Of a stretch of 58,825 nucleotides of DNA, positions 4,336 to 58,311 are shown piece after piece. The notes below the pieces were generated by a model that saw only the letters and a list, made by a program, of their open reading frames with translations, had not been told where the DNA came from and ran no database searches. Position 1 is the first letter of the stretch. The number at the start of each line of letters is the position of its first letter. The DNA comes from Chloroflexota bacterium. Its GTDB lineage: Bacteria > Chloroflexota > UBA5177. The stretch is taken from NCBI GenBank assembly GCA_025966365.1, contig JAICWV010000003.1, positions 1-58,825 on the forward strand. Direction: 5' to 3'. Position numbers and translations under genes: made by a program.

Positions 4336-4455
4336 CGATCGTACCTCCTGCCGCACGCAGAATACGCCGCGCGCTGATTCCAGCGCGAGTAGATCTGTCC
4401 AATTCGGCATGGTTTGTGCATCTCTGAGGCTGTAATCCAGGAAAGGAGATCTGGC

Positions 4456-14600: not shown

Positions 14601-14692
14601 TCCGTCTTGGTGCGACAGCTTAGGTCTCAGGCGATTCCCGAAGCTCAACTGCTGACCTACTGGGCCCAAATTCTGGAAAGGAGGTTAGCAGG

Positions 14693-48689: not shown

Positions 48690-49934
48690 ATGACAACAGC
48701 CCTCGACACCTCGACACCGCTTGACGTCACGACCGTTCGGAAGGACTTTCCGCTCCTGACCCGGTCCATGCACGACCGGCCGCTCGTCTACCTGGACAGC
48801 GCGGCGACATCGCAGAAGCCCGAAGTGGTCCTGCGCGCCCTCGACGACTACTATCGCTTCCACAACGCCAATGTGCATCGGGGAGTGTACGAGCTCGCCG
48901 AGGAAGCGACCGCCCACTACGAGACTGCCCGCTCGGTGCTTGCCTCCTTTATCGGCGCAACGCCGGAAGAGACAATATTCGTGCGGAATGCTACGGAGGG
49001 AATCAACCTCGTGGCGAATGCCTGGGGTCGGGCCAACCTGTGCGCAGGAGATGCGCTCCTGCTGACGGAGATGGAACACCACAGCAACCTGGTGCCGTGG
49101 CAAATCGTGGCGGAGGCCACCGGAGCGGAATTGCGTTATGCCGCGCTGCATGAAGACGGATCGCTCGATCTCGAAAGTCTGGAAAACCACCTGTCGGATG
49201 GGCGGGTCCGGATGGTCGCTACGACATTTATCTCCAATGTGCTGGGCACGGTGGTGCCGGTTGGGCGGGTCGCGGCGATGGCGCACAGCGCCGGAGCGCT
49301 CTACCTGGTGGATGCCGCGCAGGCAGCACCGCACGTTACCGTGGACGTGCGGGAGCTGGAGGTGGATTTTCTGGTTGTGACGGGCCACAAGATGCTGGGA
49401 CCGATGGGTATCGGCGTCCTGTATGGGCGGAAAAGCGTCCTCGATGCCATGCCGCCGTTTCTTGGCGGTGGAGAGATGATCCGGCGGGTGAGGTTACAAG
49501 GATCCAGCTGGAACGAGCTGCCCTGGAAGTTCGAAGCCGGCACTCCCAGCGTCGGCGACGCCGTAGGTCTGGCGGCTGCGGTTGGATACCTGCGTGACCT
49601 CGGCATGGACCGAATTGCGGCCCATGACATGGTGCTGGCGAACTACGCCCTGAGGGCGCTCGAAAGCGTACCGGGCGTGAATATTGTCGGGCCGCGAGAA
49701 CGGGGCGCCCTGGTGGCTTTCGCCGTCGACGGAATCCATCCGCACGATCTCGCCTCCGTCCTGGACGAGCAGGGTATCGCAGTTCGGGCCGGGCACCATT
49801 GCGCGCAGCCGCTCCATGACCGCCTGGGACTGGCGGCGACCACGCGCGCCAGCTTTTACGTGTACAACGACGAAGCCGATGTGAACCAACTGATTTCCGG
49901 CATCGGCGTCGCGCAGCAGGTGCTGCGGGCATGA
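48690..49934 (+). CDS. sufS: SufS-type cysteine desulfurase
   Basis: YLDSAATSQKP, EHHSNLVPW, TGHKMLGP, FEAGTP, RAGHHCAQPL. Confidence 0.95.
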   Translation: MTTALDTSTPLDVTTVRKDFPLLTRSMHDRPLVYLDSAATSQKPEVVLRALDDYYRFHNANVHRGVYELAEEATAHYETARSVLASFIGATPEETIFVRNATEGINLVANAWGRANLCAGDALLLTEMEHHSNLVPWQIVAEATGAELRYAALHEDGSLDLESLENHLSDGRVRMVATTFISNVLGTVVPVGRVAAMAHSAGALYLVDAAQAAPHVTVDVRELEVDFLVVTGHKMLGPMGIGVLYGRKSVLDAMPPFLGGGEMIRRVRLQGSSWNELPWKFEAGTPSVGDAVGLAAAVGYLRDLGMDRIAAHDMVLANYALRALESVPGVNIVGPRERGALVAFAVDGIHPHDLASVLDEQGIAVRAGHHCAQPLHDRLGLAATTRASFYVYNDEADVNQLISGIGVAQQVLRA

Positions 49935-50347
49935 GCACGCTGTACACCGAGATCATTCACGACGCTTACCGCAATCCGCGTCTCCGGGGCCGCATCGACC
50001 GGCCGTCGCACTCCTTCGAGGATGAGAACCCACTGTGTGGAGACACGCTTCATATCGAACTCCGTGTGGAGGATGGACGCGTTGTGGATGCCCGGTTCGA
50101 CGGCCGCGGATGCGCCATCAGCCAGGCCTCAGCTGAGCTGCTGCTGGACCGAATCACGGGAGAGTCCACGGAGACCATTGCGGGCCTGGATCGCGAGGAC
50201 GTGCTGGAAGAGCTCGGGATACCGTCGATCTCACCTGCCAGGCTCAAATGCGCCCTGCTGGCGCTCAAGGTGCTGAAGGGCGCGCTCTATGGTCTGGACA
50301 CGGCGACAGGGCCTGGCACGGCACCTGCAACGCAGCCGATAGACTAA
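49931..50347 (+). CDS. sufU: SufU/IscU-like Fe-S scaffold / sulfur acceptor
   Basis: NPLCGD, GCAISQAS, RLKCALL. ATGA overlap with sufS. Confidence 0.88.
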   Translation: MSTLYTEIIHDAYRNPRLRGRIDRPSHSFEDENPLCGDTLHIELRVEDGRVVDARFDGRGCAISQASAELLLDRITGESTETIAGLDREDVLEELGIPSISPARLKCALLALKVLKGALYGLDTATGPGTAPATQPID

Positions 50348-50384
50348 TATCGAGCGACGCGAACGGCGCAAGGGAGGATGACGC

Positions 50385-50573
50385 ATGGAGACGAGGACGG
50401 ACCTCGGCGGCCCGGCACTGGCGGAAGCGGAGCCAGACGCCGTCTCCCCGGCTGACGCCGGTGTTCGGATGGGTGAAGAGCGTCAGATACTCCTCTTTGG
50501 GTTCGGCCTGGGAATGACCATCGGCCTGATCTTCTTGCTCTACGTCGTCCTCGGCACCGCGCACCTGCTCTAG
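50385..50573 (+). CDS. Small single-pass membrane protein
   Basis: GGAGG SD, 62 aa, C-terminal TM segment ILLFGFGLGMTIGLIFLLYVVLG. Confidence 0.6.
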   Translation: METRTDLGGPALAEAEPDAVSPADAGVRMGEERQILLFGFGLGMTIGLIFLLYVVLGTAHLL

Positions 50574-51067
50574 TCGTTCGGCCCTTCCAGCTGCTCGCGC
50601 ATCCAGCCGGCTTCGGGTGCTCGCCGGGTGGCGATCTCACCGGCGACGATGCCCGGGTCTCGCAGCCACAGCTTCTCGGTGGCTCGACCCAGTTTTCCGG
50701 CCAGCACCTCTCGTGCGGCAAGCTGCGCCGCCGACAGGCGGCGCCTGGATCGTTTCGAGTTCAGACTGGACAGCGCTCTGCCCCAGAACGCCACCAGCGA
50801 GCGCGGAGTGAACGCAACCTCGCGGGTCCCGCCCGCGCCCTGATCGCGGACCGACTCGACGAAGGCACCGAGCCACCGACTTTCTTCGGCGACGAAGTCA
50901 AACCTCTGGCGGATCGGTCCCGGAGAGGTGAGCCGCACAACGTGGCGCATGAATCCCATGGAACGCTGGTAGTATGCCGCCAGTTGCGCCAGGTCTTCTA
51001 TCTCCTCCGCGGTCAATGTGACGCTCACGGTAGAGGGGGAGCGGCGAGCCTGACTGTTTTTCGGCAT
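50570..51067 (-). CDS. Hypothetical protein
   Basis: 165-aa ORF with a GGAAGG SD and an upstream promoter. No recognisable family. Confidence 0.6.
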   Translation of the reverse strand: MPKNSQARRSPSTVSVTLTAEEIEDLAQLAAYYQRSMGFMRHVVRLTSPGPIRQRFDFVAEESRWLGAFVESVRDQGAGGTREVAFTPRSLVAFWGRALSSLNSKRSRRRLSAAQLAAREVLAGKLGRATEKLWLRDPGIVAGEIATRRAPEAGWMREQLEGPND

Positions 51068-51158
51068 CCTTCCCGATTATGCAGGACAGAGAGAGCGGCC
51101 GGACCGAGGTGGCCCGGCCGCTTGTCCGCCTCATAGGCGGGACTCAGCACGCACTCAA

Positions 51159-51187
51159 AGCGTAAAGCACGCTCGGACCCGGGTCAA
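51159..51187 (-). promoter_or_regulatory. Sigma70-type promoter for the 50570-51067 gene
   Basis: Minus strand TTGACC-N17-TACGCT. Confidence 0.5.
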
Positions 51188-51261
51188 CTTGACAGCATCG
51201 CGAATTTGTGCATGTGCAAAACTCTGTGGAGGAAGTTGTGGACGGCTCTGTCAATTGGGGT

Positions 51262-51588
51262 GGCAGCGGTGGATGAGTGGTGGTAAAGGATCCGCCGCTG
51301 CCGATCTGCGGGCCCCGACACCACAAAAAGCGCTCGACATAACGCGCGTGGCACCACCAGGTGCCGGCGGACGGGGCTGTACGTAACGGCCGCCGATGGG
51401 TATCGTATGCCCAGGTAATCTGTGGAGGTGGGGGATTACCGACGGGTGGCCACCGGCCACCCGGGTCCTCATTACCTAGTCCTTCTCCTTTCCGTCCCGC
51501 CTGCCGGCGAAGCCCGATATTCACACTTCGCCGGCAGGCACCGCCCTCCGAACAGAATTCGGCCCCGATGGGGCCGTTGTTCGTTTCT
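51262..51588 (+). ncRNA. Candidate structured non-coding RNA (multi-hairpin, anti-SD tract, own terminator)
   Basis: Eight hairpins, several directly abutting, with G-U wobbles that work only on the + strand. CCTTCTCCTTTCC tract at 51481-51493. Terminal hairpin followed by a U-rich tail. Confidence 0.55.
51560..51588 (+). terminator. Probable + strand intrinsic terminator
   Basis: CGGCCCC-gat-GGGGCCG-TTGTTCGTTTCT. Confidence 0.55.
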
Positions 51589-51631
51589 GGGCCGGGAAAA
51601 TGGGAGATCCGGGGGGTTCCCAGCCGAATGC

Positions 51632-51952
51632 TCAGGCCGTAAGGGACAGGAGACTGGGGAGCCCGTCCAGCCTGGACAGCCCGGACGGGTCCACCAGGTA
51701 CATATCGACCTCATTGCGATCCAGCGACGAGACGGCGATCCGTACCGGCGAGACCAGGCTGGCCAGAAGTAAGAGCACGTCCTGCGCCAGGACCCCGGTC
51801 ACGTCGAGGACGACGAGGCCAGCGTCACCGTGCAGGCACTTCTCGCGGTCGGCCCAGGTCAGGTCGACGACGGTGTGGCTTCCCTCGAGGGAGCGGCGAA
51901 TACCCGTCGAGAGGATCGGGTAATCAGATATGACGTACGCGAGCGGGCCCAA
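51632..51952 (-). CDS. Small degenerate receiver-like hypothetical protein
   Basis: AAGGAG SD with TTG start. YVISDYPILSTGIRRSL...LVVLDV resembles the N-terminal half of a receiver domain. Confidence 0.6.
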   Translation of the reverse strand: MGPLAYVISDYPILSTGIRRSLEGSHTVVDLTWADREKCLHGDAGLVVLDVTGVLAQDVLLLLASLVSPVRIAVSSLDRNEVDMYLVDPSGLSRLDGLPSLLSLTA

Positions 51953-52204
51953 TGAATTCTCCTTGCGCGAGAATACCCCGCTTTCCCGCGCCGGCGCATG
52001 GGTCGAAAGGCCCGACTTGACGATCCAATGAGTACGACTGAAACGCGATCCTCGGACTGCCGCCGGGAGAAGCCTGGTCCGGACGGGCCGGCAGGTCCTC
52101 GCCCCATTTTGTATCTTCCCTGCGTATCTGCTTGCTAAGGGCTATATTCCTAGAGAAGGCACCCCGGGCCCATCGGAAATCCATAGTGTCGGGAGGAGAA
52201 GACC

Positions 52205-53743
52205 ATGAGGATTTCTCGCTTGGTAGGCCGCGTCCTACCGTTACTGGTTATTGCCGGAATCGCCTTGCCGGCGTCGCTCGGGCACGCGGCAAGCCCGCGG
52301 GGGCCGGCGAAGGCGAGCAATGGCACGCTCGTCATTCAGCTGAATGCCGATCCTCCAAGTCTGGATCCGTCCTACTCGACGGCACTGGTAGATCGGCAGG
52401 TGCTCAACAACCTCTGTGACAAGCTCTTCGACCTCAATGCCAGGGGAAAAATCGTCGGAGACCTAGTGCAGAAGGTGACCACATCCAAGAACGGCAAGAC
52501 GTACACGCTGACGCTGCATAAGGGCATCAAGTTCACGGATGGAACGCCGCTGGATGCCAATGCGGTGAAATTCAACCTCGACCGTTACCGCCAACCGGCT
52601 TCCCTGCGCGCACTTGAGGTCCAGTACATCCAGAACATCACGGTAACCGGGAAGTACACCCTCAAAATCGCACTGACAACTCCATTCGCGCCGTTCCTGT
52701 CGATCCTCACCGACCGCTCCGGCATGATCGTCTCGCCGAAAGCAGTCCAGGACGAGGGTGAGACCGGATTCCGCAACAACCCCGTTTGCAGCGGACCGTA
52801 CAAGTTCGTGGACCGCGTCAAGGCAGACCACATTGACCTGACGGCGAACACCCACTACTGGAAGAAGGGACTTCCGAAGACCAAAAACCTGGTGTTCAAG
52901 ATCTTCACCGACGCGAACTCTGCGCTCGTCAATCTCGAGTCAGGTGAGCTCGATTTCATCATCCCGCCCCCGACGGCCCTTGCCGTCCTGAAAGGGCAGA
53001 AGAAGTTCACCGTGGTAAACAAGTCGAGCATCAGCTACTTCGGCATCTATCTCAACGTGACGGCGGCTCCGCTGAATAACCGTGATCTGCGACAAGCCAT
53101 CGACGCAGCGGTGAACCGAAAGGGGCTGGCCCGGGTTGTCTACCAGAACACGGTTCGGGCTGCATGGTCGCCTTTCGGGGCTGGTGTGCTTGGCCACGAC
53201 AAGAACGACATCGCACCAAAGCCGGACGTCAAGAAGGCAAAGCAACTGGTAGCGAAGTCCGGCATCTCCAACCCGACGTTCACCTTGAAGATCGCATCCG
53301 GAAGCACCATCGCCCAGCAAGAAGCCGCTTTCATCCAGAGCAACCTGAAACTCGCCGGCATCACGATGAACATCCAGCCGGAAGATTTCGGCACGCTGCT
53401 GAGTGACGGTGGAAAGCACAACTTCCAGGCGATGGACCTTGGTTGGTCGGGCCGTCCCGACCCGGACCAGAACATTTACGACTTCTTCGTGACCGGGAGC
53501 AAGAACAACTACGAGGCCTACAGCAATGCCACCGTGGACTCTCTGCTGGCGAAGGCGCGCAAGACCTTGAAGTCGAGCAAGCGAAGGGCACTCTACGACC
53601 AGGTGATGTCCATCCTGCACAAGGACGTGCCGTACGTGTTCACCTACCACGGCAACAACGTCTTTGCCTACAGCAGCAAGCTCACCGGTTTCGAGTACGT
53701 GCCGGACGGGATCATCCGCGCGTACCGGATTTCGAAGAAGTAG
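52205..53743 (+). CDS. Peptide/nickel ABC transporter substrate-binding protein (family 5)
   Basis: Signal peptide, DPPSLDP, KFTDGTPLDANAVKFNLDR, SGPYKF, GWSGRPDPD. GGAGGAG SD. Confidence 0.92.
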   Translation: MRISRLVGRVLPLLVIAGIALPASLGHAASPRGPAKASNGTLVIQLNADPPSLDPSYSTALVDRQVLNNLCDKLFDLNARGKIVGDLVQKVTTSKNGKTYTLTLHKGIKFTDGTPLDANAVKFNLDRYRQPASLRALEVQYIQNITVTGKYTLKIALTTPFAPFLSILTDRSGMIVSPKAVQDEGETGFRNNPVCSGPYKFVDRVKADHIDLTANTHYWKKGLPKTKNLVFKIFTDANSALVNLESGELDFIIPPPTALAVLKGQKKFTVVNKSSISYFGIYLNVTAAPLNNRDLRQAIDAAVNRKGLARVVYQNTVRAAWSPFGAGVLGHDKNDIAPKPDVKKAKQLVAKSGISNPTFTLKIASGSTIAQQEAAFIQSNLKLAGITMNIQPEDFGTLLSDGGKHNFQAMDLGWSGRPDPDQNIYDFFVTGSKNNYEAYSNATVDSLLAKARKTLKSSKRRALYDQVMSILHKDVPYVFTYHGNNVFAYSSKLTGFEYVPDGIIRAYRISKK

Positions 53744-53771
53744 CCTAGATACCCATCACGGGGAGAAGACC

Positions 53772-54710
53772 GTGACGTTTCTCATCAGGCGAATCATCCT
53801 TACCATTCCGATTCTCCTGCTGGTCACCATCATGGTCTTCTCCCTGATCCACCTGATTCCCGGTGATGTGGCGACGGTCGTTTTGGGGCAGGAGGCCACT
53901 CCCCAGGCGAAAATTGCCATGCGTCACCGGTTGGGGCTCGATCAATCGCTTCCAGTTCAGTACGCCAACTGGCTGGGAAACGTTCTGCACGGAAACCTTG
54001 GACGCTCGCTCACGGACGAAACTCCGGTGTCGGCAGAGATCCAGCAGCGACTGCCAGTCACCGGTGAGCTGGCTCTGGCGTCATTTATCGTCGCTATTCT
54101 GATCGCGATTCCCACCGGCATTATCTCGGCGGTATACCGGGGCCGCGCGGTCGACTATCTCGCCACCCTGTTCGCATTTCTTGGCATGAGCGTTCCGGGA
54201 TTCTGGCTGGCCATGCTGATGATCATCCTATTTGCCCTGAAGCTGGGCTGGCTCCCGTCGTCCGGGTACGTGGCCTTTACCCACGACCCCGGCGCTAATC
54301 TCCGGGCCATGGTCCTGCCCGCCGTCGCCACCGGCGTACGTGAGTCCGCGGTGTTGATGCGAATGATGCGTTCCAGCTTGCTGGAGGTGCTGGGTCAGGA
54401 CTACATCCGGACAGCCCGCGGGAAAGGACTCGCGCTGCGAACGGTGGTCTTCGCTCACGGACTTCGCAACGCGCTGGTTCCGGTTATCACGCAGTCTGGT
54501 CTCCTGATTGCCGGACTCCTCGGCGGATTGGTCATCACCGAAACCCTCTTTTCGATTCCGGGATTCGGCAGGCTCATCGTGACCGCGATATTCGAGCGGG
54601 ACTTTATCACCGTCCAGGGCGCGGTTCTCGTATCCGCGCTCCTGGTGGTCCTGGTCAACCTCCTCGTCGATATTCTGTACGGAGTGCTCGATCCGAGGAT
54701 CCGCATATGA
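53772..54710 (+). CDS. oppB: Peptide ABC transporter permease (OppB/DppB)
   Basis: LIPGD, LGLDQ...QY, GNLGRS, RLPVTGEL, DYIRTARGKGL, TETLFSIPGFG, DPRIR. Confidence 0.9.
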   Translation: MTFLIRRIILTIPILLLVTIMVFSLIHLIPGDVATVVLGQEATPQAKIAMRHRLGLDQSLPVQYANWLGNVLHGNLGRSLTDETPVSAEIQQRLPVTGELALASFIVAILIAIPTGIISAVYRGRAVDYLATLFAFLGMSVPGFWLAMLMIILFALKLGWLPSSGYVAFTHDPGANLRAMVLPAVATGVRESAVLMRMMRSSLLEVLGQDYIRTARGKGLALRTVVFAHGLRNALVPVITQSGLLIAGLLGGLVITETLFSIPGFGRLIVTAIFERDFITVQGAVLVSALLVVLVNLLVDILYGVLDPRIRI

Positions 54711-55630
54711 GTCGGGAACTCGAAGATCGCTCGCCTCTCCTGATCGTGGAGACCGGCGACGATCTGGGCCTCACCATCGTTCGCAGCGAATCTCCCACGC
54801 GGATCTTTCTGCGTCGATTCGCCCACAACAAACTCGCGCTCATAGGCGCGGCCATCATTCTGATCATGCTTCTGGCGGCGCTCACTGCGCCGCTGATATC
54901 TCCCTACGACCCCCAATACCAGGACTACAGCAGCCTCTACAGTCAGCCAAGCCGGGCTCACTTCATGGGGACCGACCAACTGGGCCGGGACATGCTGTCA
55001 CGCATCATCTTCGGCGCACGGATCTCGATGGCCGCGTCCGTCATCGCCGTCCTCATCGCTCTCATCATCGGTCTCCCTATCGGTCTCATCGCCGGGTATT
55101 ACCGGGGCATCCTGGGTGAGTGGATCATCATGCGTATCGTGGATGCCGTACAATCGTTTCCCTTTCTCATCCTGGCCCTGGCGCTGGAGGCCACTCTCGG
55201 CATTTCCTTCATCAATGCCATGATTGCGATCGGCATCGGCTTTTCACCGGCCTTCATTCGCATCGTCCGAGGCGAGGTTCTCCGCGTCGGCACCCAGGAC
55301 TACATCCTGGCCTGCCGCGCCATCGGAACCCGCGACCGGCGCATTATTCTGCGCCACATTCTGCCCAATTCCATGCCTCCGCTCCTGGTACTCACATCGG
55401 TCAGCATGGCCGGCGCGGTACTCGCCGAGGCCGGGCTGGCTTTTCTGGGCCTTGGCGTGGCGCCGCCGACGCCGTCGTGGGGCGTCATGCTGACCGACGC
55501 GCAGAGTTACATATTTCTGGACTACAACCTGGCTATCTGGCCCGGTCTCGCCATTTTTCTGGTTGTATTCGGGTTCAACGTGCTCGGCGACGGCGTTCGC
55601 GACAGCCTTGACCCGCGGTTCAGTCCCTGA
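54707..55630 (+). CDS. oppC: Peptide ABC transporter permease (OppC/DppC)
   Basis: HFMGTDQLGRDMLSRIIFGARIS, RHILPN, EAGLAFLGLG, PSWGVML, GDGVRDSLDP. Confidence 0.9.
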   Translation: MSRELEDRSPLLIVETGDDLGLTIVRSESPTRIFLRRFAHNKLALIGAAIILIMLLAALTAPLISPYDPQYQDYSSLYSQPSRAHFMGTDQLGRDMLSRIIFGARISMAASVIAVLIALIIGLPIGLIAGYYRGILGEWIIMRIVDAVQSFPFLILALALEATLGISFINAMIAIGIGFSPAFIRIVRGEVLRVGTQDYILACRAIGTRDRRIILRHILPNSMPPLLVLTSVSMAGAVLAEAGLAFLGLGVAPPTPSWGVMLTDAQSYIFLDYNLAIWPGLAIFLVVFGFNVLGDGVRDSLDPRFSP

Positions 55631-55651
55631 CGCCACGCGCTATCCTGTTCG

Positions 55652-56830
55652 GTGGTCCTTTCCCTGTCCCTCGCCGAGGCGACGCGCATCCTCGTCGCGT
55701 ACCAGCTAGAGCGCTCCGACATTCCAGGTGTCTTCGACCGGCTTGGAAGCATTCAGTACGATCCGCTCAATCCTGTGGGTCGGAATGTGGATCTGGTACT
55801 TCAGGCGCGTGTGCCGGGGTATCGCGTCCACGGCTGGCTCGCGCCGACCTACCGTGACCGCGTCGCCTATGATGCCTGGGACAAGCAAGCCTGCCTCGTC
55901 CCGGTGTCCGACTGGCCGCACCGCCATCCCATCCGCGACCGGTTTCATCCGTGGCACGACCGGCAGATTCTCGGAGAGTACCCGGATACGGTTGGCGCTG
56001 TCTTCCGTGAACTTGACGCGCGTGGCCCGATGTCGTCGATTGACTTCGAAGACCGGACGCAGGCGCCCGGACGGCACACCTGGTATGGGCCGACGGTGGT
56101 GAAGAGAGTCCTGCGTGCACTGTGGGCCAGGGGTGAGCTGGTGACCCATCACCGGGTGGCGGGGCGTCACTATTATCATCGGCCGGAGCATGTCATTCCT
56201 GAGCCGTACCGCTCTCAGCCCGGTAGCCAGGATCTCAGCGCATACTTTCGCTGGGTCGTGTTGCGCAGGCATCAAACGGCGGGTCTCCTGCGTCCGGGCG
56301 CGCCGGCCGAAATCTGGAGCGTGTGCGGCGCTCGCCCTGACCGCGACCGCGCCGTCCGCGAGCTCGTGGACGCGGGGGACCTCATTCCGGCCCGCGTGGG
56401 ACCGCGCCAGGTTCCCTTCCACCTGCCCGCGTCAGCGGTGCCCTACCTCGGCGGTGGGCCGGTGGTCCGGTTGGTCAGATTCCTGGGACCGCTCGACAGT
56501 CTTCTGTGGGACCGGCGAGCGGTGCGCGAGATTTTCGGATTCGACTATATCTGGGAGGTATACAAGAAACCGCAGGATCGCCGGTGGGGGTATTACGTGC
56601 TCCCGGTGCTATGGGGTGACCGGTTTGTGGCTCGGATCGATTCGCGCTTCGAGAACGGAACATGGCGAATTGCGCGCTGGTGGTGGGAAGAGGATGTACG
56701 AGTGACGGTGGATCTGCTGGCGGCGGTGCGATCCGCTTCCCGCCGGTTTTCCCGTTACCTGGGCGCTTTCGCCATCGAAATCAGCGAGTCGGTCGAACCG
56801 CGAGTCCGGGCGGCCCTCGGCGCTCGATGA
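55652..56830 (+). CDS. Winged-helix (HTH_42) DNA glycosylase, YcaQ family (crosslink repair)
   Basis: SIQYDPLN (QxD catalytic motif), FLGPLDSLLWDR, FGFDYIWEVY, RRWGYYVLPVLWGDRFVARID. Confidence 0.85.
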   Translation: MVLSLSLAEATRILVAYQLERSDIPGVFDRLGSIQYDPLNPVGRNVDLVLQARVPGYRVHGWLAPTYRDRVAYDAWDKQACLVPVSDWPHRHPIRDRFHPWHDRQILGEYPDTVGAVFRELDARGPMSSIDFEDRTQAPGRHTWYGPTVVKRVLRALWARGELVTHHRVAGRHYYHRPEHVIPEPYRSQPGSQDLSAYFRWVVLRRHQTAGLLRPGAPAEIWSVCGARPDRDRAVRELVDAGDLIPARVGPRQVPFHLPASAVPYLGGGPVVRLVRFLGPLDSLLWDRRAVREIFGFDYIWEVYKKPQDRRWGYYVLPVLWGDRFVARIDSRFENGTWRIARWWWEEDVRVTVDLLAAVRSASRRFSRYLGAFAIEISESVEPRVRAALGAR

Positions 56831-58311
56831 ACCGCCCCGACGCGGTCCTTCGCTCGCCCAACCGGTTTCCGGCGGCGCAGGGCGTGGTCTGGGTCGTCGT
56901 CGCCCTGGGCATTCCGCGCTTGATCGGAGCCATCATCACGGTGGCGCTGCGCCGCTATCTTGGCCCGGCAGCGTCCGGCATCTTCGATCTCGCGTTCACC
57001 CCGTACAAGCTTCTGGACACGTTTCGCAGCTTCGGTACCGGCCCTGCACTGGTCTTCGAGCGGGAACTGACCCCGGTCATCGCCGACACCGCCTGGACGC
57101 TCAATATGATCGCCGCGGTTGTGATCGCGCTGCTGCTACAGCTGATCGCTGCTCCCGCCGCCGAGTACTTTCGTCACCCTGCCATCGAGGGGGTCGTGCG
57201 GGTGCTCTCGATCGCGTATATCTTCGCATCGCTGGCGTCGGTGCACTACTTCTTGCTACTGCGAGACCTGAACTTTCGGGCAAGGGCGGTGCCCCCGGTA
57301 GGTCAGGTCTCGGTGGCAGGAATGGTGGCGGTGCTGTTTGCCGTGTGGGGCTTCGGCGTCGGTGCACTGGTAGCGCGGGAAGTCGCGAGTGCCGCGGCCG
57401 GCGCGGTGCTGCTATGGCTCATTCACCCTTTCCGCCCGGGGATTCGGATTAACCGTGACGTCGCGCGCAAGATTCTGAGCTACGGCGTATGGGTGGGAGC
57501 CGGCCTTTCGCTTCTCTATCTGTCTCAAAACGCGGACCTGTTTGTCGGTGGCCGCATCATTCGTCGCGCACGGGATATCGGGTTCTATTCCACCAGCTGG
57601 ACGCTCGCCTTCATGATGGCGGGCATTCTCACTGTGCTCGTGGGGAACGTCGTCTTTCCGACACTCAGCCGGGTTCGGGACGACTCCGAACAGCTACACG
57701 CCAAACTGCTTACCGGATTGCAGCAAGTGTCGATTGTTATGCTACCGGCGGGTGTGCTGCTCGCCTGCGTCGCGCCGGTGCTGATCGTGCCGGTCCTCGG
57801 CCACCGATTCGCTCCCTACCGCGCGTCCTTCGTCGTCCTCTCCGTCCTGGGCGTCTATGCGGCCGTCAGGACCCTGCTGGGGGTCTTTTTCGAGGGATAC
57901 AAGGCGGTTGGGAAGCCATGGCTGGTGCCCCTCTATAACGGCTGCAAGCTGGTGGTACTGGTCCCGTCGATGATTGTCGGCGCGCACCATGGCGTGGTGG
58001 GCCTGGCGCTGGGGTACATTCCCGTGACGGTATTGGAGATCCCGGCGGCGCTTGGCTTGGTTTTCGTCGTTCTCGACGTGACGCCAAGGCAGGTCTGGGC
58101 CAGCATCCGCTCGCCGATCCTGGCAACTGCCTGCATGGCGTCGGTTACCGTCGCCGTGGAAACCGCAGTGGTGGCCGGAACCGGCGGCCTGGATGTGGCC
58201 GCTCTCGCGCTGTCCATCATCGGCGGCGCCGCCACGTACGCGGCGGCGCTCTACCTGTTCGATCGCGCGCTCCTGGTGGAAGCCCGGCTGGTACTCCTTG
58301 CCGGGCTCTGA
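56827..58311 (+). CDS. Oligosaccharide flippase (Wzx/MOP superfamily, WzxC-like)
   Basis: RYLGP...G.F, LLLRDLNFR, GFGVGALV, NADLFVGG, IGFYS, VFPTLSR, many TM helices. ATGA overlap with ycaQ. Confidence 0.82.
   Translation: MNRPDAVLRSPNRFPAAQGVVWVVVALGIPRLIGAIITVALRRYLGPAASGIFDLAFTPYKLLDTFRSFGTGPALVFERELTPVIADTAWTLNMIAAVVIALLLQLIAAPAAEYFRHPAIEGVVRVLSIAYIFASLASVHYFLLLRDLNFRARAVPPVGQVSVAGMVAVLFAVWGFGVGALVAREVASAAAGAVLLWLIHPFRPGIRINRDVARKILSYGVWVGAGLSLLYLSQNADLFVGGRIIRRARDIGFYSTSWTLAFMMAGILTVLVGNVVFPTLSRVRDDSEQLHAKLLTGLQQVSIVMLPAGVLLACVAPVLIVPVLGHRFAPYRASFVVLSVLGVYAAVRTLLGVFFEGYKAVGKPWLVPLYNGCKLVVLVPSMIVGAHHGVVGLALGYIPVTVLEIPAALGLVFVVLDVTPRQVWASIRSPILATACMASVTVAVETAVVAGTGGLDVAALALSIIGGAATYAAALYLFDRALLVEARLVLLAGL

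What the first reader, a model, noticed from the sequence alone, without database searches (positions are those of the whole stretch)
51262..51588. Candidate novel ~325-nt structured ncRNA with an anti-Shine-Dalgarno tract
Seen in the sequence: a gap between two minus-strand genes is packed with hairpins. They are GGCAGCGGTGGAT/ATCCGCCGCTGCC (51262-51302), GGCACC/GGTGCC (51350-65), GGCTGT/ACGGCC within GGCGG/CCGCC (51366-94), TGGGTAT/ATGCCCA (51397-413), GGTAATC/GATTACC (51414-40), CGGGTGGCC/GGCCACCCG (51443-63), a perfect 14-bp stem (51499-51539) and a terminator-like stem with a U-rich tail (51560-88). Five stems abut with 0-2 nt spacers and may be closed by GGGCCC (51310-15)/GGGTCC (51463-68) into a multibranch junction. 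The imperfect positions in three stems are U-G pairs on the + strand but A-C mismatches on the - strand, so the + strand is the likelier RNA. No + strand gene lies upstream to need that terminator. A single-stranded CCUUCUCCUUUCC tract is complementary to AAAGGAG-type SD sequences like those in this window (e.g. 4442-4448, 14677-14684). ATTACCT (51471-77) can alternatively pair with AGGTAAT (51413-19), which suggests a switch. It lacks the tmRNA, RNase P and SRP hallmark motifs. Inference: an undescribed trans-acting or scaffold RNA.
Basis: partly seen in the sequence, partly recalled or inferred. Interest (0 to 1): 0.78.

Follow-up and report, generated by a model that had tools for sequence, protein, structure and literature searches.

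The report
New small RNA family in soil Chloroflexota
The gap holds a real, conserved, structured small RNA gene of about 175 bases on the + strand, in no known RNA family, that carries a copy-like stretch of the ribosome's mRNA-docking tail and is therefore most likely a regulator of translation.

Summary
The hairpins are all in the sequence, but only the 3' half of the finding is RNA. Comparison with 11 same-family genomes and 19 metagenome copies shows a conserved unit at about 51413-51588 (+). It has a -35/-10 promoter, a 5' hairpin whose loop is a perfect Shine-Dalgarno (GGAGGUG), a second hairpin and an invariant unpaired 21-nt C/U tract. That tract shares CUCCUUUC with the 16S 3' tail. 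A third hairpin, a CACCGCC box and a terminator follow.

- **Covariation:** it is strong (15 of 30 pairs compensatory).
- **Strand:** G-U pairs outnumber A-C 27 to 2, which points to the + strand.
- **Rfam 15:** there is no match.

Positions 51262-51405 are not conserved except for one promoter-upstream motif (TCGACATAAC, at fixed spacing). They fold barely better than shuffles, so the 325-nt multibranch RNA and the proposed switch are not supported.

The RNA belongs to a modular, multi-copy family (1-5 model matches per genome, 2-5 where completeness is at least 80%). It was found only in one order of soil Chloroflexota MAGs, the same order that holds an orphan arginine-rich protein usually encoded divergently next to it.

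My best reading is a trans-acting sRNA that occludes Shine-Dalgarno sites. Its expression and targets are untested.

The parts
51213..51243 (+). Three head-to-tail GTGsA/GTGGA repeats with a period of 12 nt (GTGCAAAACTCT GTGGAGGAAGTT GTGGAC). This is a conserved block 85-150 nt upstream of the ACATAA motif and a possible protein-binding site.
   Evidence: Present in all 11 type-A loci aligned, including the 2 that lack the p165 neighbour. Its function was not tested.
51334..51343 (+). TCGACATAAC, the upstream motif shared by all paralogs. It is inferred to be an activator or other protein site centred near -75.
   Evidence: the motif starts 69-72 nt upstream of the model match in 23 of 23 loci that carry the 5' hairpin, and lies 57-59 nt from the -10; only 4 sites in the 3.59-Mb genome fit [AT]CATAA-N57-59-TAnnnT, and 3 of them are the three sRNA loci.
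51378..51383 (+). -35-like hexamer TGTACG. It is weak here and is TCGACA, TTGAGT or TTGAAT in orthologs and paralogs.
   Evidence: Alignments. The tool calls TTGAAT-16-TATAGT directly upstream of the paralog in L093. No promoter reached the tool's threshold in the window itself.
51401..51406 (+). -10 hexamer TATCGT (TAnnnT in all orthologs).
   Evidence: Read from the alignments; there is no transcript data.
51413..51588 (+). Predicted sRNA transcript, about 175 nt. Both ends are inferred: the 5' end from the -10 and the 3' end from the terminator.
   Evidence: Model R1 matches 51408-51552 at 151.1 bits, E 2.4e-34. The fold has z -5.15.
51414..51440 (+). Hairpin 1 (module M1): stem GGUAAUC(U)/(G)GAUUACC, loop GUGGAGGUGGG, which contains the perfect SD GGAGGUG.
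   Evidence: 184 of 184 cells are paired across 23 distinct sequences, and 2 pairs show changes on both sides; the slid controls give 15-67% paired. GGAGGUG is the exact complement of CACCUCC in the 16S 3' end of relatives.
51443..51463 (+). Hairpin 2: CGGGUGGCC/GGCCACCCG.
   Evidence: 8 pairs. 4 of them show compensatory changes in A1 and 4 do in A6.
51481..51501 (+). C/U tract CCUUCUCCUUUCCGUCCCGCC (start of module M2). It is unpaired in the consensus fold up to the first three bases of hairpin 3.
   Evidence: Invariant or nearly invariant in 11 and 23 sequences. Mean unpaired probability is 0.75-0.87 in 6 of 9 orthologs. It shares CUCCUUUC with the 16S tail CACCUCCUUUCU.
51499..51539 (+). 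Hairpin 3, a 14-bp stem.
   Evidence: 8 of 14 pairs show compensatory changes in A1 and 10 of 13 do in A6. Its G-U pairs fall on the + strand.
51539..51545 (+). CACCGCC box 3' of hairpin 3. It resembles the 16S CACCUCC, and two metagenome variants read CACCUCC.
   Evidence: Nearly invariant. The variants are L126 and L130. Minimum-energy folds of 6 of 9 orthologs pair it and the bases after it with the G-rich loop region.
51560..51588 (+). Intrinsic terminator CGGCCCCGAUGGGGCCG plus a U-rich tail. It is also terminator-like on the - strand, so it may serve the convergent gene too.
   Evidence: Orthologs have their own non-homologous terminators 35-50 nt after hairpin 3, for example L064, L134, L125 and the L119 group.
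50570..51067 (-). p165, a divergently transcribed orphan protein with the invariant motif AFWGR..L..L.S.RSRRR. It is a candidate partner or regulator; this is inferred.
   Evidence: It lies next to the type-A RNA in 8 of 10 orthologous loci. It is single-copy in 10 of 11 f1 genomes and 4 of 4 f2 genomes, and absent from 0 of 5 f3 genomes. It has 27 relatives among 5.8 billion clusters and none is named. There is no Pfam or NCBIfam hit. The AF2 model has pLDDT 88.8, and no PDB fold match is better than E 0.22.
51632..51952 (-). p106, a convergent small ORF downstream with no family match. It is found downstream of the RNA in some relatives.
   Evidence: Relatives lie downstream on the opposite strand in L067, L069 and L071 as well as in the window. 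There is no Pfam or NCBIfam hit.
51262..51405 (+). The upstream half of the original finding. It is species-specific hairpin-rich DNA between the GTGGA repeats and the promoter, and is probably not part of the RNA.
   Evidence: It cannot be aligned between genera except for ACATAA. z is -2.19, with 5 of 200 shuffles as good.

Best explanation
Window ~51413-51588 (+) is an independently transcribed small RNA of about 175 nt.

**Architecture, 5' to 3'.**
- Hairpin 1, whose loop shows a perfect SD sequence (GGAGGUG).
- Hairpin 2.
- An invariant single-stranded C/U tract (CCUUCUCCUUUCCGUCCCGCC) that copies the core of the 16S anti-SD tail.
- Hairpin 3.
- A CACCGCC box.
- An intrinsic terminator.

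**Family.** It is one member (type A) of a modular family, with 1-5 model matches per genome. All copies share a promoter-upstream motif (TCGACATAAC) at fixed spacing. The family is confined to one order of soil Chloroflexota.

**Most likely mode of action.** The exposed C/U tract, and perhaps the CACCGCC box, base-pairs in trans with GGAAAGGAG-type SD regions of mRNAs and blocks 30S binding. C-rich sRNAs of other phyla work this way.

**Shown here.** Conservation, covarying structure, strand, family structure, phyletic range and complementarity.

**Inferred.** The transcript ends, expression, targets and translational repression.
For: **Conservation.**
- BLAST of the gap hits 11 of 11 same-family genomes and 0 of 29 others, over window 51389-51549 only.
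- Model R1 finds it in 12 of 12 family genomes.

**Structure.**
- A1 (11 sequences): 31 pairs, 95.8% of cells paired against 87.2 +/- 0.9 in shuffles.
- 13 pairs have changes on both sides against 4.3 +/- 1.5 (0 of 500 shuffles reach this), and the slid controls give 2-5.
- A6 (23 distinct sequences, with metagenome copies): 30 pairs, 15 compensatory, covariation term -4.31.
- Hairpin 1: 184 of 184 cells paired.

**Strand.** 27 G-U against 2 A-C cells.

**Not coding on the - strand.** ORFs behind the SD-like complement run 1 to 86+ aa (two run off the extracted stretch), in different frames.

**Own transcription unit.**
- A conserved TAnnnT with a -35-like hexamer lies just upstream.
- Terminators are lineage-specific.
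- No downstream same-strand gene is conserved.

**Anti-SD reading.**
- The 16S of relatives ends in GGAUCACCUCCUUUCU.
- The tract stays unpaired, with unpaired probability 0.75-0.87 in 6 of 9 orthologs.
- Genes in this genome use GGAAAGGAG SDs.
- 56 GGAAAGGAG sites occur in the genome. 15 of them are followed by a start codon and an ORF of at least 60 aa.
Against: - There is no transcript evidence. All 20 sequencing runs that hold the locus are DNA (recorded under Tried and rejected), so the promoter, ends and expression are read from sequence only.
- The tool's promoter scan finds nothing in the window itself.
- No conserved target was found. The best extended complement in the genome (14 nt, before a 61-aa gene) is not conserved in relatives.
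- The 13 candidate genes behind GGAAAGGAG[AG] show no common theme.
- An invariant 21-nt tract is longer than a usual sRNA seed. Up to three tract-hairpin modules occur in tandem. Both points fit a sponge or a protein-binding role at least as well.
- A perfect SD in the 5' loop is not explained by simple SD occlusion.
- Kin are few and related: 12 genomes of one family, plus metagenome copies that are partly near-identical.
Confidence: 0.45

Rival explanations
1. It is a sponge or decoy RNA. The repeated tract-hairpin-CACCGCC modules titrate a factor rather than regulate mRNAs directly. The factor could be the co-distributed arginine-rich protein p165, or the G-rich loops of the short paralogs (type C), which carry only the SD-like hairpin.
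For: - 5 of 24 distinct type-A sequences carry a second module within 45 nt, and one locus (L137) has three.
- Paralogs exist with only the G-rich hairpin (type C, 9 loci) or only the C-rich module (type D, 7-9 loci), and all sit behind the same upstream motif.
- p165 lies next to the RNA in 8 of 10 loci. In G004 it lies about 1.4 kb from another paralog.
- p165 has the same order-level range as the RNA family and an invariant RSRRR-type motif.
- The 21-nt invariance exceeds a usual seed.
Against: - RNAduplex of the genome's own type C against types A and B is no better than shuffles (z -1.1 to -1.8; 7, 16 and 29 of 200 shuffles as good). This is a crude test.
- p165 has no recognisable RNA-binding fold.
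- In the sister family f2, p165 and the RNA are not adjacent.
Confidence: 0.25
2. It is a ribosome-directed RNA. The 5' hairpin loop GGAGGUG docks on the 16S anti-SD of free 30S subunits, as an SD mimic, and the C/U tract modulates that docking within the same molecule.
For: - The loop core GAGGUGGGG is kept in nearly all of the 25 M1-bearing sequences, including the sister family.
- It is the exact complement of CACCUCC at the 16S 3' end.
- Minimum-energy folds of 6 of 9 orthologs pair the G-rich segment with the 3' CACCGCC(G)CCUC region.
- Two natural variants change CACCGCC to CACCUCC, which would make that pairing perfect.
Against: - No covariation can test the loop contacts, because both partners are invariant.
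- No start codon or ORF follows the SD. The AUU in the stem becomes GCU in three type-A variants, G002, L123 and L137.
- Type D paralogs lack the hairpin altogether.
Confidence: 0.1
3. It is a cis-acting leader or Rho-loading element. The C-rich unstructured segments flanking a hairpin act as a rut-like site, or as a leader for the gene downstream.
For: - In 3 of 8 loci with enough downstream sequence (L065, L067, L071), a homologous same-strand gene of about 250 aa begins right after the RNA.
- In G001 no terminator intervenes.
- The likeness to a rut site split by a hairpin is recalled, not tested.
Against: - The downstream gene is not conserved. The window and L069 have a convergent gene instead, and L066 and L070 have a different gene.
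- Most single-module copies have their own intrinsic terminator.
- Exact 21-nt invariance is not expected of a rut site.
Confidence: 0.07
4. One reading: a ~325-nt multibranch scaffold RNA spanning 51262-51588, closed by GGGCCC/GGGUCC and switching through ATTACCT/AGGTAAT.
For: - The hairpins exist.
- The 327-nt fold has z -5.17.
- GTGGA repeats conserved further upstream show that something functional lies 5' of the core.
Against: - 51262-51405 is not alignable between genera except for ACATAA and folds at z -2.19.
- A conserved -35/-10 sits inside the proposed RNA, directly before hairpin 1.
- The closing-helix and switch sequences are not conserved.
Confidence: 0.05
5. It is not an RNA gene. 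It is instead a DNA-level repeat or protein-binding region, or a small - strand ORF behind the SD-like GGAAAGGAGAAGG.
For: - On the - strand the tract reads as a strong SD followed by ATG and a 73-aa ORF.
- Parts of the element recur elsewhere in each genome.
Against: - The - strand ORFs differ in frame and length among the 11 orthologs.
- Indels in loops and linker are not multiples of three.
- Changes in three stems are compensatory, and G-U pairs fall on the + strand 27 to 2.
Confidence: 0.03

Closest known systems
Cuckoo / CcsR (alpha-r14-type) sRNAs of Alphaproteobacteria. I saw only the search listing and the starts of the abstracts of PMC4615179 and PMC8034643; the details are recalled.
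   Same: - Multi-copy, partly tandem sRNA modules.
- An invariant pyrimidine-rich anti-SD-like motif.
- A modular family that sequence models track poorly.
   Different: - The motif here is CCUUCUCCUUUCCGUCCCGCC, in a single-stranded linker. It is not CCUCCUCCC in hairpin loops.
- This family has an extra SD-like G-rich hairpin.
- The phylum is different.
- No Rfam model matches.
RsaE/RoxS (Bacillota) and 6C RNA (Actinomycetota), which are C-rich sRNAs that pair with SD regions (recalled; both families are in Rfam).
   Same: - A stand-alone sRNA with a 5' hairpin and an intrinsic terminator.
- Exposed C-rich sequence complementary to G-rich SDs.
   Different: - There is no sequence or structure match.
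- The C/U tract is 21 nt long and mimics the 16S tail (CUCCUUUC) rather than consisting of short CCCC motifs.
- The family is modular, with tandem units.
Protein-sequestering sRNAs such as CsrB/RsmZ (recalled).
   Same: - A repeated identical motif separated by hairpins, in a multi-copy family.
- A shared upstream activating sequence at a fixed distance from the promoter.
   Different: - The repeats number 1-3, not about 5-20.
- The motif is pyrimidine-rich and lies in the linker. It is not GGA in loops.
- No CsrA link was tested. The candidate partner, p165, is an orphan.
The 3' tail of 16S rRNA (the anti-SD) itself.
   Same: - CUCCUUUC (tract) and CACC(G/U)CC (box) together cover CACCUCCUUUCU, as read from the 16S of relatives.
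   Different: - The two parts are in permuted order and split by a hairpin.
- They sit in a 175-nt RNA with its own promoter.
- The genome's own 16S is not assembled.

Membership tests
Any Rfam 15 family (including 6S, tmRNA, RNase P, SRP, RsaE, 6C, alpha-r14, riboswitches) | A covariance-model score at or above the family's gathering threshold | tested here: not met
   There are 0 matches at gathering score in the whole window on both strands. With permissive filters on 51000-51750 there are 8 matches, E 1.4-8.7, of which the best is 18.9 bits against a threshold of 74. ARAGORN finds no tRNA or tmRNA.
Cuckoo / CcsR family | A CCUCCUCCC motif presented in hairpin loops | tested here: not met
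   The sequence 51413-51588 has no CCTCCTCCC. The C/U tract lies between hairpins in the consensus fold. The defining feature itself is recalled, plus the listing.
Stand-alone bacterial sRNA gene (generic kind) | Its own promoter and its own intrinsic terminator, with no conserved cis-linked ORF | tested here: inconclusive
   A conserved TAnnnT and -35-like hexamer are present. A tool-called promoter lies before a paralog, but none is called in the window. There is a terminator at 51560-76. The downstream gene is not conserved. No transcript data exist.
Stand-alone bacterial sRNA gene (generic kind) | Secondary structure conserved by compensatory change | tested here: met
   13 of 31 pairs (A1) and 15 of 30 pairs (A6) have changes on both sides. 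0 of 500 shuffles reach the observed values, and the slid controls give 2-5 pairs.
SD-occluding trans-acting sRNA (functional class) | An accessible seed complementary to the SDs of the host's mRNAs | tested here: met
   The tract is unpaired in the consensus fold and in 6 of 9 ensembles. It is the complement of GGAAAGGAG(A), which is found before start codons.
SD-occluding trans-acting sRNA (functional class) | Demonstrated or conserved mRNA targets, with translational repression | tested here: inconclusive
   The best candidate is not conserved. There is no functional theme. Repression cannot be tested with these tools.
Csr/Rsm-type protein sponge | Many GGA motifs in hairpin loops | tested here: not met
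   There is one GGA-containing loop (hairpin 1) per RNA. The repeated element is the pyrimidine tract.

The most novel reading that the evidence does not exclude
One order of Chloroflexota runs a dedicated RNA system built from mimics of the two partners of translation initiation. One module copies the 16S anti-SD tail (the C/U tract plus CACC(G/U)CC). Another copies a perfect SD in a hairpin loop. The modules are encoded separately (types C and D), fused (types A and B), or with the anti-SD-like module repeated in tandem. All copies sit behind one shared upstream control motif, and the system co-occurs with an orphan arginine-rich protein (p165). Together they would act as a global, tunable throttle of translation initiation, with built-in antagonism between the mimics, rather than as a gene-specific sRNA.
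Probability: 0.17. Interest if true: 0.82.

Novelty: new variant of a known kind. Interest (0 to 1): 0.58.

Why it matters
Almost nothing is known about RNA regulators in Chloroflexota, a major and mostly uncultured soil phylum. This family is well defined and supported by covariation. It has clear modules, a shared promoter signature and a candidate protein partner, so it can be taken straight to the bench by synthesis, 30S and mRNA binding assays, and toeprinting.

An RNA that carries both a perfect SD and a copy of the anti-SD tail, in a family where the two modules also occur alone and the anti-SD-like module also occurs in tandem, is an unusual design. It could reveal a new way of tuning translation initiation. 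If it proves to be an ordinary SD-occluding sRNA, it still extends that mechanism to a new phylum and gives Rfam a new family.

Tried and rejected
- **Expression.** The look-up of sequencing runs listed no RNA holder. 20 rows hold the stretch or part of it and all are soil or metagenome DNA. Expression therefore could not be examined, and read laying was not used.
- **Intermolecular pairing of the genome's own short paralog with types A and B.** RNAduplex gave z -1.83, -1.40 and -1.06 against mononucleotide shuffles, which is not significant. This is a crude test that ignores intramolecular structure.
- **Target search.** There are 36 loci with an exact complement of at least 11 nt to the tract. 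The best, 14 nt before a 61-aa gene on contig C9, has relatives in only 5 of 12 family genomes, and none keeps the complementarity.
- **DnaA-box reading of the GTGGA repeats.** TGTGGAYAA with up to 1 mismatch gives 9 window hits against 11.8 expected, and none lies at 51213-51243. The GC-skew sign change near 50-52 kb rests on the last 7 kb only. I dropped this reading.
- **p165 function.**
  - There is no Pfam or NCBIfam hit.
  - Foldseek against the PDB gives a best E of 0.22.
  - The pdb_via_wide library was not available.
  - The ESM Atlas gave only ferritin-like leads at 0.90 and unnamed structural neighbours. I do not rely on these.
- **Earlier notes of this scan.** There was nothing relevant.
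- **Literature.** Three searches found no paper on such an RNA in Chloroflexota, judged from the listings only. Supplements were not consulted.
Full report
**1. What is in the sequence**

The gap between the - strand ORFs 50570-51067 and 51632-51952 is 564 nt long.

| Stretch folded | z-score | Shuffles as good |
|---|---|---|
| 51262-51588, + strand (MFE -168.8) | -5.17 | 0 of 100 |
| 51262-51588, - strand | -3.73 | 0 of 100 |
| 51410-51590 | -5.15 | 0 of 200 |
| 51262-51405 | -2.19 | 5 of 200 |

The folding signal is therefore uneven and sits in the 3' half. Rfam 15 gives nothing at gathering score in the whole window. With permissive filters it gives only 8 chance-level matches, E 1.4-8.7, each at most 18.9 bits. 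ARAGORN finds nothing.

**2. What is conserved**

BLAST of the gap against 41 related genomes hits all 11 genomes of the same family and none of 29 others. Only window 51389-51549 is covered, at 74-81% identity.

The alignment shows, in order:
- a -35-like hexamer;
- 17 nt later a TAnnnT (51401-51406);
- hairpin 1 (51414-51440);
- hairpin 2 (51443-51463);
- a variable U-rich linker;
- an invariant CCTTCTCCTTTCCGTCCCGCC (51481-51501);
- hairpin 3 (51499-51539);
- CACCGCC (51539-51545).

Everything 5' of the promoter fails to align except TCGACATAAC (51334-51343) and, further up, a block of three GTGGA-type repeats (51213-51243).

Two of the 11 rows (G009, G002) are cut by contig ends. G002 is an unpublished genome. 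It contributes one row to A1, two rows to A4 and one count to each family tally. No conclusion depends on it alone.

**3. Structure and strand**

- RNAalifold on the 11 sequences gives three hairpins with 31 pairs.
- 95.8% of cells are paired, against 87.2 +/- 0.9 in shuffles.
- 13 pairs have changes on both sides, against 4.3 +/- 1.5. No shuffle of 500 reaches this, and sliding the partner by 1-3 columns gives 2-5.
- Within paired columns there are 273 Watson-Crick cells, 27 G-U, 2 A-C and 11 other. The + strand is therefore the RNA.
- A scan of metagenome contigs for the tract gave 28 stretches. Model R1 found 26 matches in them, 19 of them full-length at 107-158 bits.
- With the genome copies this makes 23 distinct full-length sequences. 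They give 30 pairs, 15 of them compensatory, and a covariation term of -4.31.
- Hairpin 1 was counted over all 25 sequences that carry it (23 distinct). 184 of 184 cells are paired, and there is a C-G/U-A exchange between paralog types.

On the - strand the tract reads as an SD followed by ATG and a 73-aa ORF. The equivalent ORFs in the 11 orthologs run 1 to 86+ aa (two run off the extracted stretch), in different frames, so this is not a gene.

**4. Transcription unit (inferred)**

- **5' end.** The conserved -10 puts the 5' end near 51413, so hairpin 1 is 5'-terminal.
- **3' end.** The window has an intrinsic terminator at 51560-51576 with a T-rich tail.
- **Terminators in orthologs.** They have unrelated terminators 35-50 nt after hairpin 3, for example in L064, L134, L125 and the L119 group.
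- **Promoter calls.** The promoter scan calls nothing in the window, whose -35 is weak. It does call TTGAAT-16-TATAGT ending one base before the paralog in L093.
- **Downstream genes.** These differ between genera. There is a convergent small ORF in the window and L069, a ~250-aa same-strand gene in L065, L067 and L071, and another gene in L066 and L070. The element is therefore not a conserved leader.
- **Expression.** No RNA sequencing run holds the locus, so expression is untested.

**5. A modular family**

Model R1 finds 1-5 matches in each of the 12 family genomes. The single-match genome, G010, is 64% complete; genomes at least 80% complete have 2-5. Reading the 23 secondary matches gives four types.

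| Type | Composition | Loci or number |
|---|---|---|
| A | hairpin 1 + hairpin 2 + tract + hairpin 3 + CACCGCC | 11 orthologs, including the window |
| B | hairpin 1 + hairpin 2 + variant C/U tract + terminator | L076, L078 |
| C | about 70 nt: hairpin 1 + a terminator whose 3' arm is GCACCGCCCGG | 9 loci |
| D | a different 5' part + tract + hairpin 3 + CACCGCC | 7-9 loci |

- This genome has type A (the window), type B (C241:12258-12419) and type C (C211:11071-11178).
- The tract-hairpin module can be repeated. 5 of 24 distinct type-A sequences have a second copy within 45 nt, and L137 has three.
- All types share (T)CGACATAA(C/G). The motif starts 69-72 nt before the model match in 23 of 23 loci with hairpin 1, and ends 57-59 nt before the -10.
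- In the whole 3.59-Mb genome only 4 sites fit [AT]CATAA-N57-59-TAnnnT, and 3 of them are these loci. Fixed spacing across non-conserved sequence points to a protein contact at the DNA level; this is an inference.

**6. Range**

- **Class (21 genomes held).** f1 11 of 11; sister family f2 3 of 4 at 30-32 bits; f3 only one partial, hairpin-only match. The f2 copies have hairpin 1, hairpin 2 and a different 3' part.
- **Phylum sample of 151 genomes.** 11 have matches, and all are in f1 (9 of 9 plus this genome) or f2 (1 of 4).
- **Pattern for the type B/C hairpin.** It occurs in 10 stretches among 185,579 species' genomes.
  - 7 are labelled Chloroflexota, Chloroflexi or Chloroflexia.
  - 3 are labelled as proteobacterial MAGs.
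  - Two of these three have exactly the contig lengths of the f2 hits G012:C23 and G015:C15.
- **Habitat.** Holders of the locus are soil metagenomes (DNA only).

**7. What it resembles functionally**

- The 16S rRNA of two relatives ends in GGAUCACCUCCUUUCU. This MAG has no 16S assembled.
- The tract contains CUCCUUUC, 8 nt identical to that tail. The 3' box CACCGCC differs by one base from CACCUCC, and two metagenome variants (L126, L130) read CACCUCC.
- The loop of hairpin 1 contains GGAGGUG, the exact complement of CACCUCC. Its core GAGGUGGGG is kept in nearly all of the 25 M1 sequences.
- Genes here use GGAAAGGAG-type SDs. The genome has 56 such sites, 15 of them before a start codon and an ORF.
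- The tract stays unpaired in the consensus fold and in most ensembles.
- In 6 of 9 orthologs the minimum-energy fold replaces hairpin 1 by a helix between the G-rich segment and the 3' CCGCC(G)CCUC region. Covariation cannot test this, because both sides are invariant.

**8. Neighbour**

- The divergent 165-aa ORF (p165) has relatives next to the type-A RNA in 8 of 10 loci.
- In G004 it lies about 1.4 kb from another paralog.
- It is single-copy in f1 10 of 11 and f2 4 of 4, and absent from f3 0 of 5. The f1 miss is a genome that is 64% complete. This is the same range as the RNA family.
- It has only 27 relatives in 5.8 billion clusters, and none is named.
- There is no Pfam or NCBIfam match.
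- The AF2 model is confident (pLDDT 88.8) and mostly helical, with no PDB fold match better than E 0.22.
- It has an invariant AFWGR..L..L.S.RSRRR stretch.
- Whether it binds the RNA, the DNA motifs or neither is open.

**9. Verdict**

It is a real, previously undescribed, structured sRNA gene on the + strand; I put about 0.9 on that part. It is about 175 nt long, not 325 nt.

The mechanism is inferred. The reading I favour (0.45) is SD occlusion in trans by the anti-SD-like tract. The invariance of 21 nt, the tandem modules, the SD-like loop and the co-distributed orphan protein keep a sponge or partner model (0.25) and a 30S-directed model (0.10) alive.

No paper on such an RNA turned up in three full-text searches, of which I saw listings only. 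The comparison with cuckoo/CcsR, RsaE/RoxS, 6C and Csr-type RNAs rests on recall plus those listings.

Noticed in passing
window 51094-51214: The stretch upstream of the p165 start is conserved in two other genera: G001 at 72% over 125 nt and G005 at 69% over 101 nt. It includes a palindromic GTCAACTTGAC. It may be the leader or promoter of p165, or a second small element. No Rfam match lies in it apart from a chance-level hit at 51090-51141 (E 3).
   Followed up: partly
window 51213-51243 (and GTGGAT at 51269-51275): Three head-to-tail GTGGA-type repeats with a 12-nt period are conserved in all 11 type-A loci, and further GTGGA(T/C) copies lie downstream. The repeats look like an iteron or response-regulator site. 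A DnaA-box reading did not hold up.
   Followed up: partly
G000 contigs C1:1204, C80:17196, C106:4140, C150:9095, C242:45449 (own genome, outside the window): A different repeated element of about 50 nt occurs at least five times: (G)ACGACATAAYGG-N8-10-GTAGCGGAGGGCTTYAGCCCGCAGTC. It shares CGACATAA with the sRNA upstream motif. Its nature is unknown.
   Followed up: no
window 51632-51952 (-): This 106-aa ORF has no family match, and its sequence looks to me like a degenerate receiver domain (judged by eye, not tested). It is found convergent to the RNA in the window, L067, L069 and L071.
   Followed up: partly
window 50000-58000: GC skew turns from positive to negative at about 50-52 kb. This rests on the last 7 kb of the contig only, so it is weak.
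   Followed up: no
L009, L010 (contig ends in G009, G002): Two assemblies break inside the loop of hairpin 3. This is probably an assembler artefact at a long perfect inverted repeat.
   Followed up: no
window 48690-50347 (+): sufS (Aminotran_5, E 4e-139) and sufU (NifU_N) lie upstream. An SBP_bac_5 / ABC permease operon starts at 52205. These are ordinary genes and their neighbourhood is not conserved in relatives.
   Followed up: no
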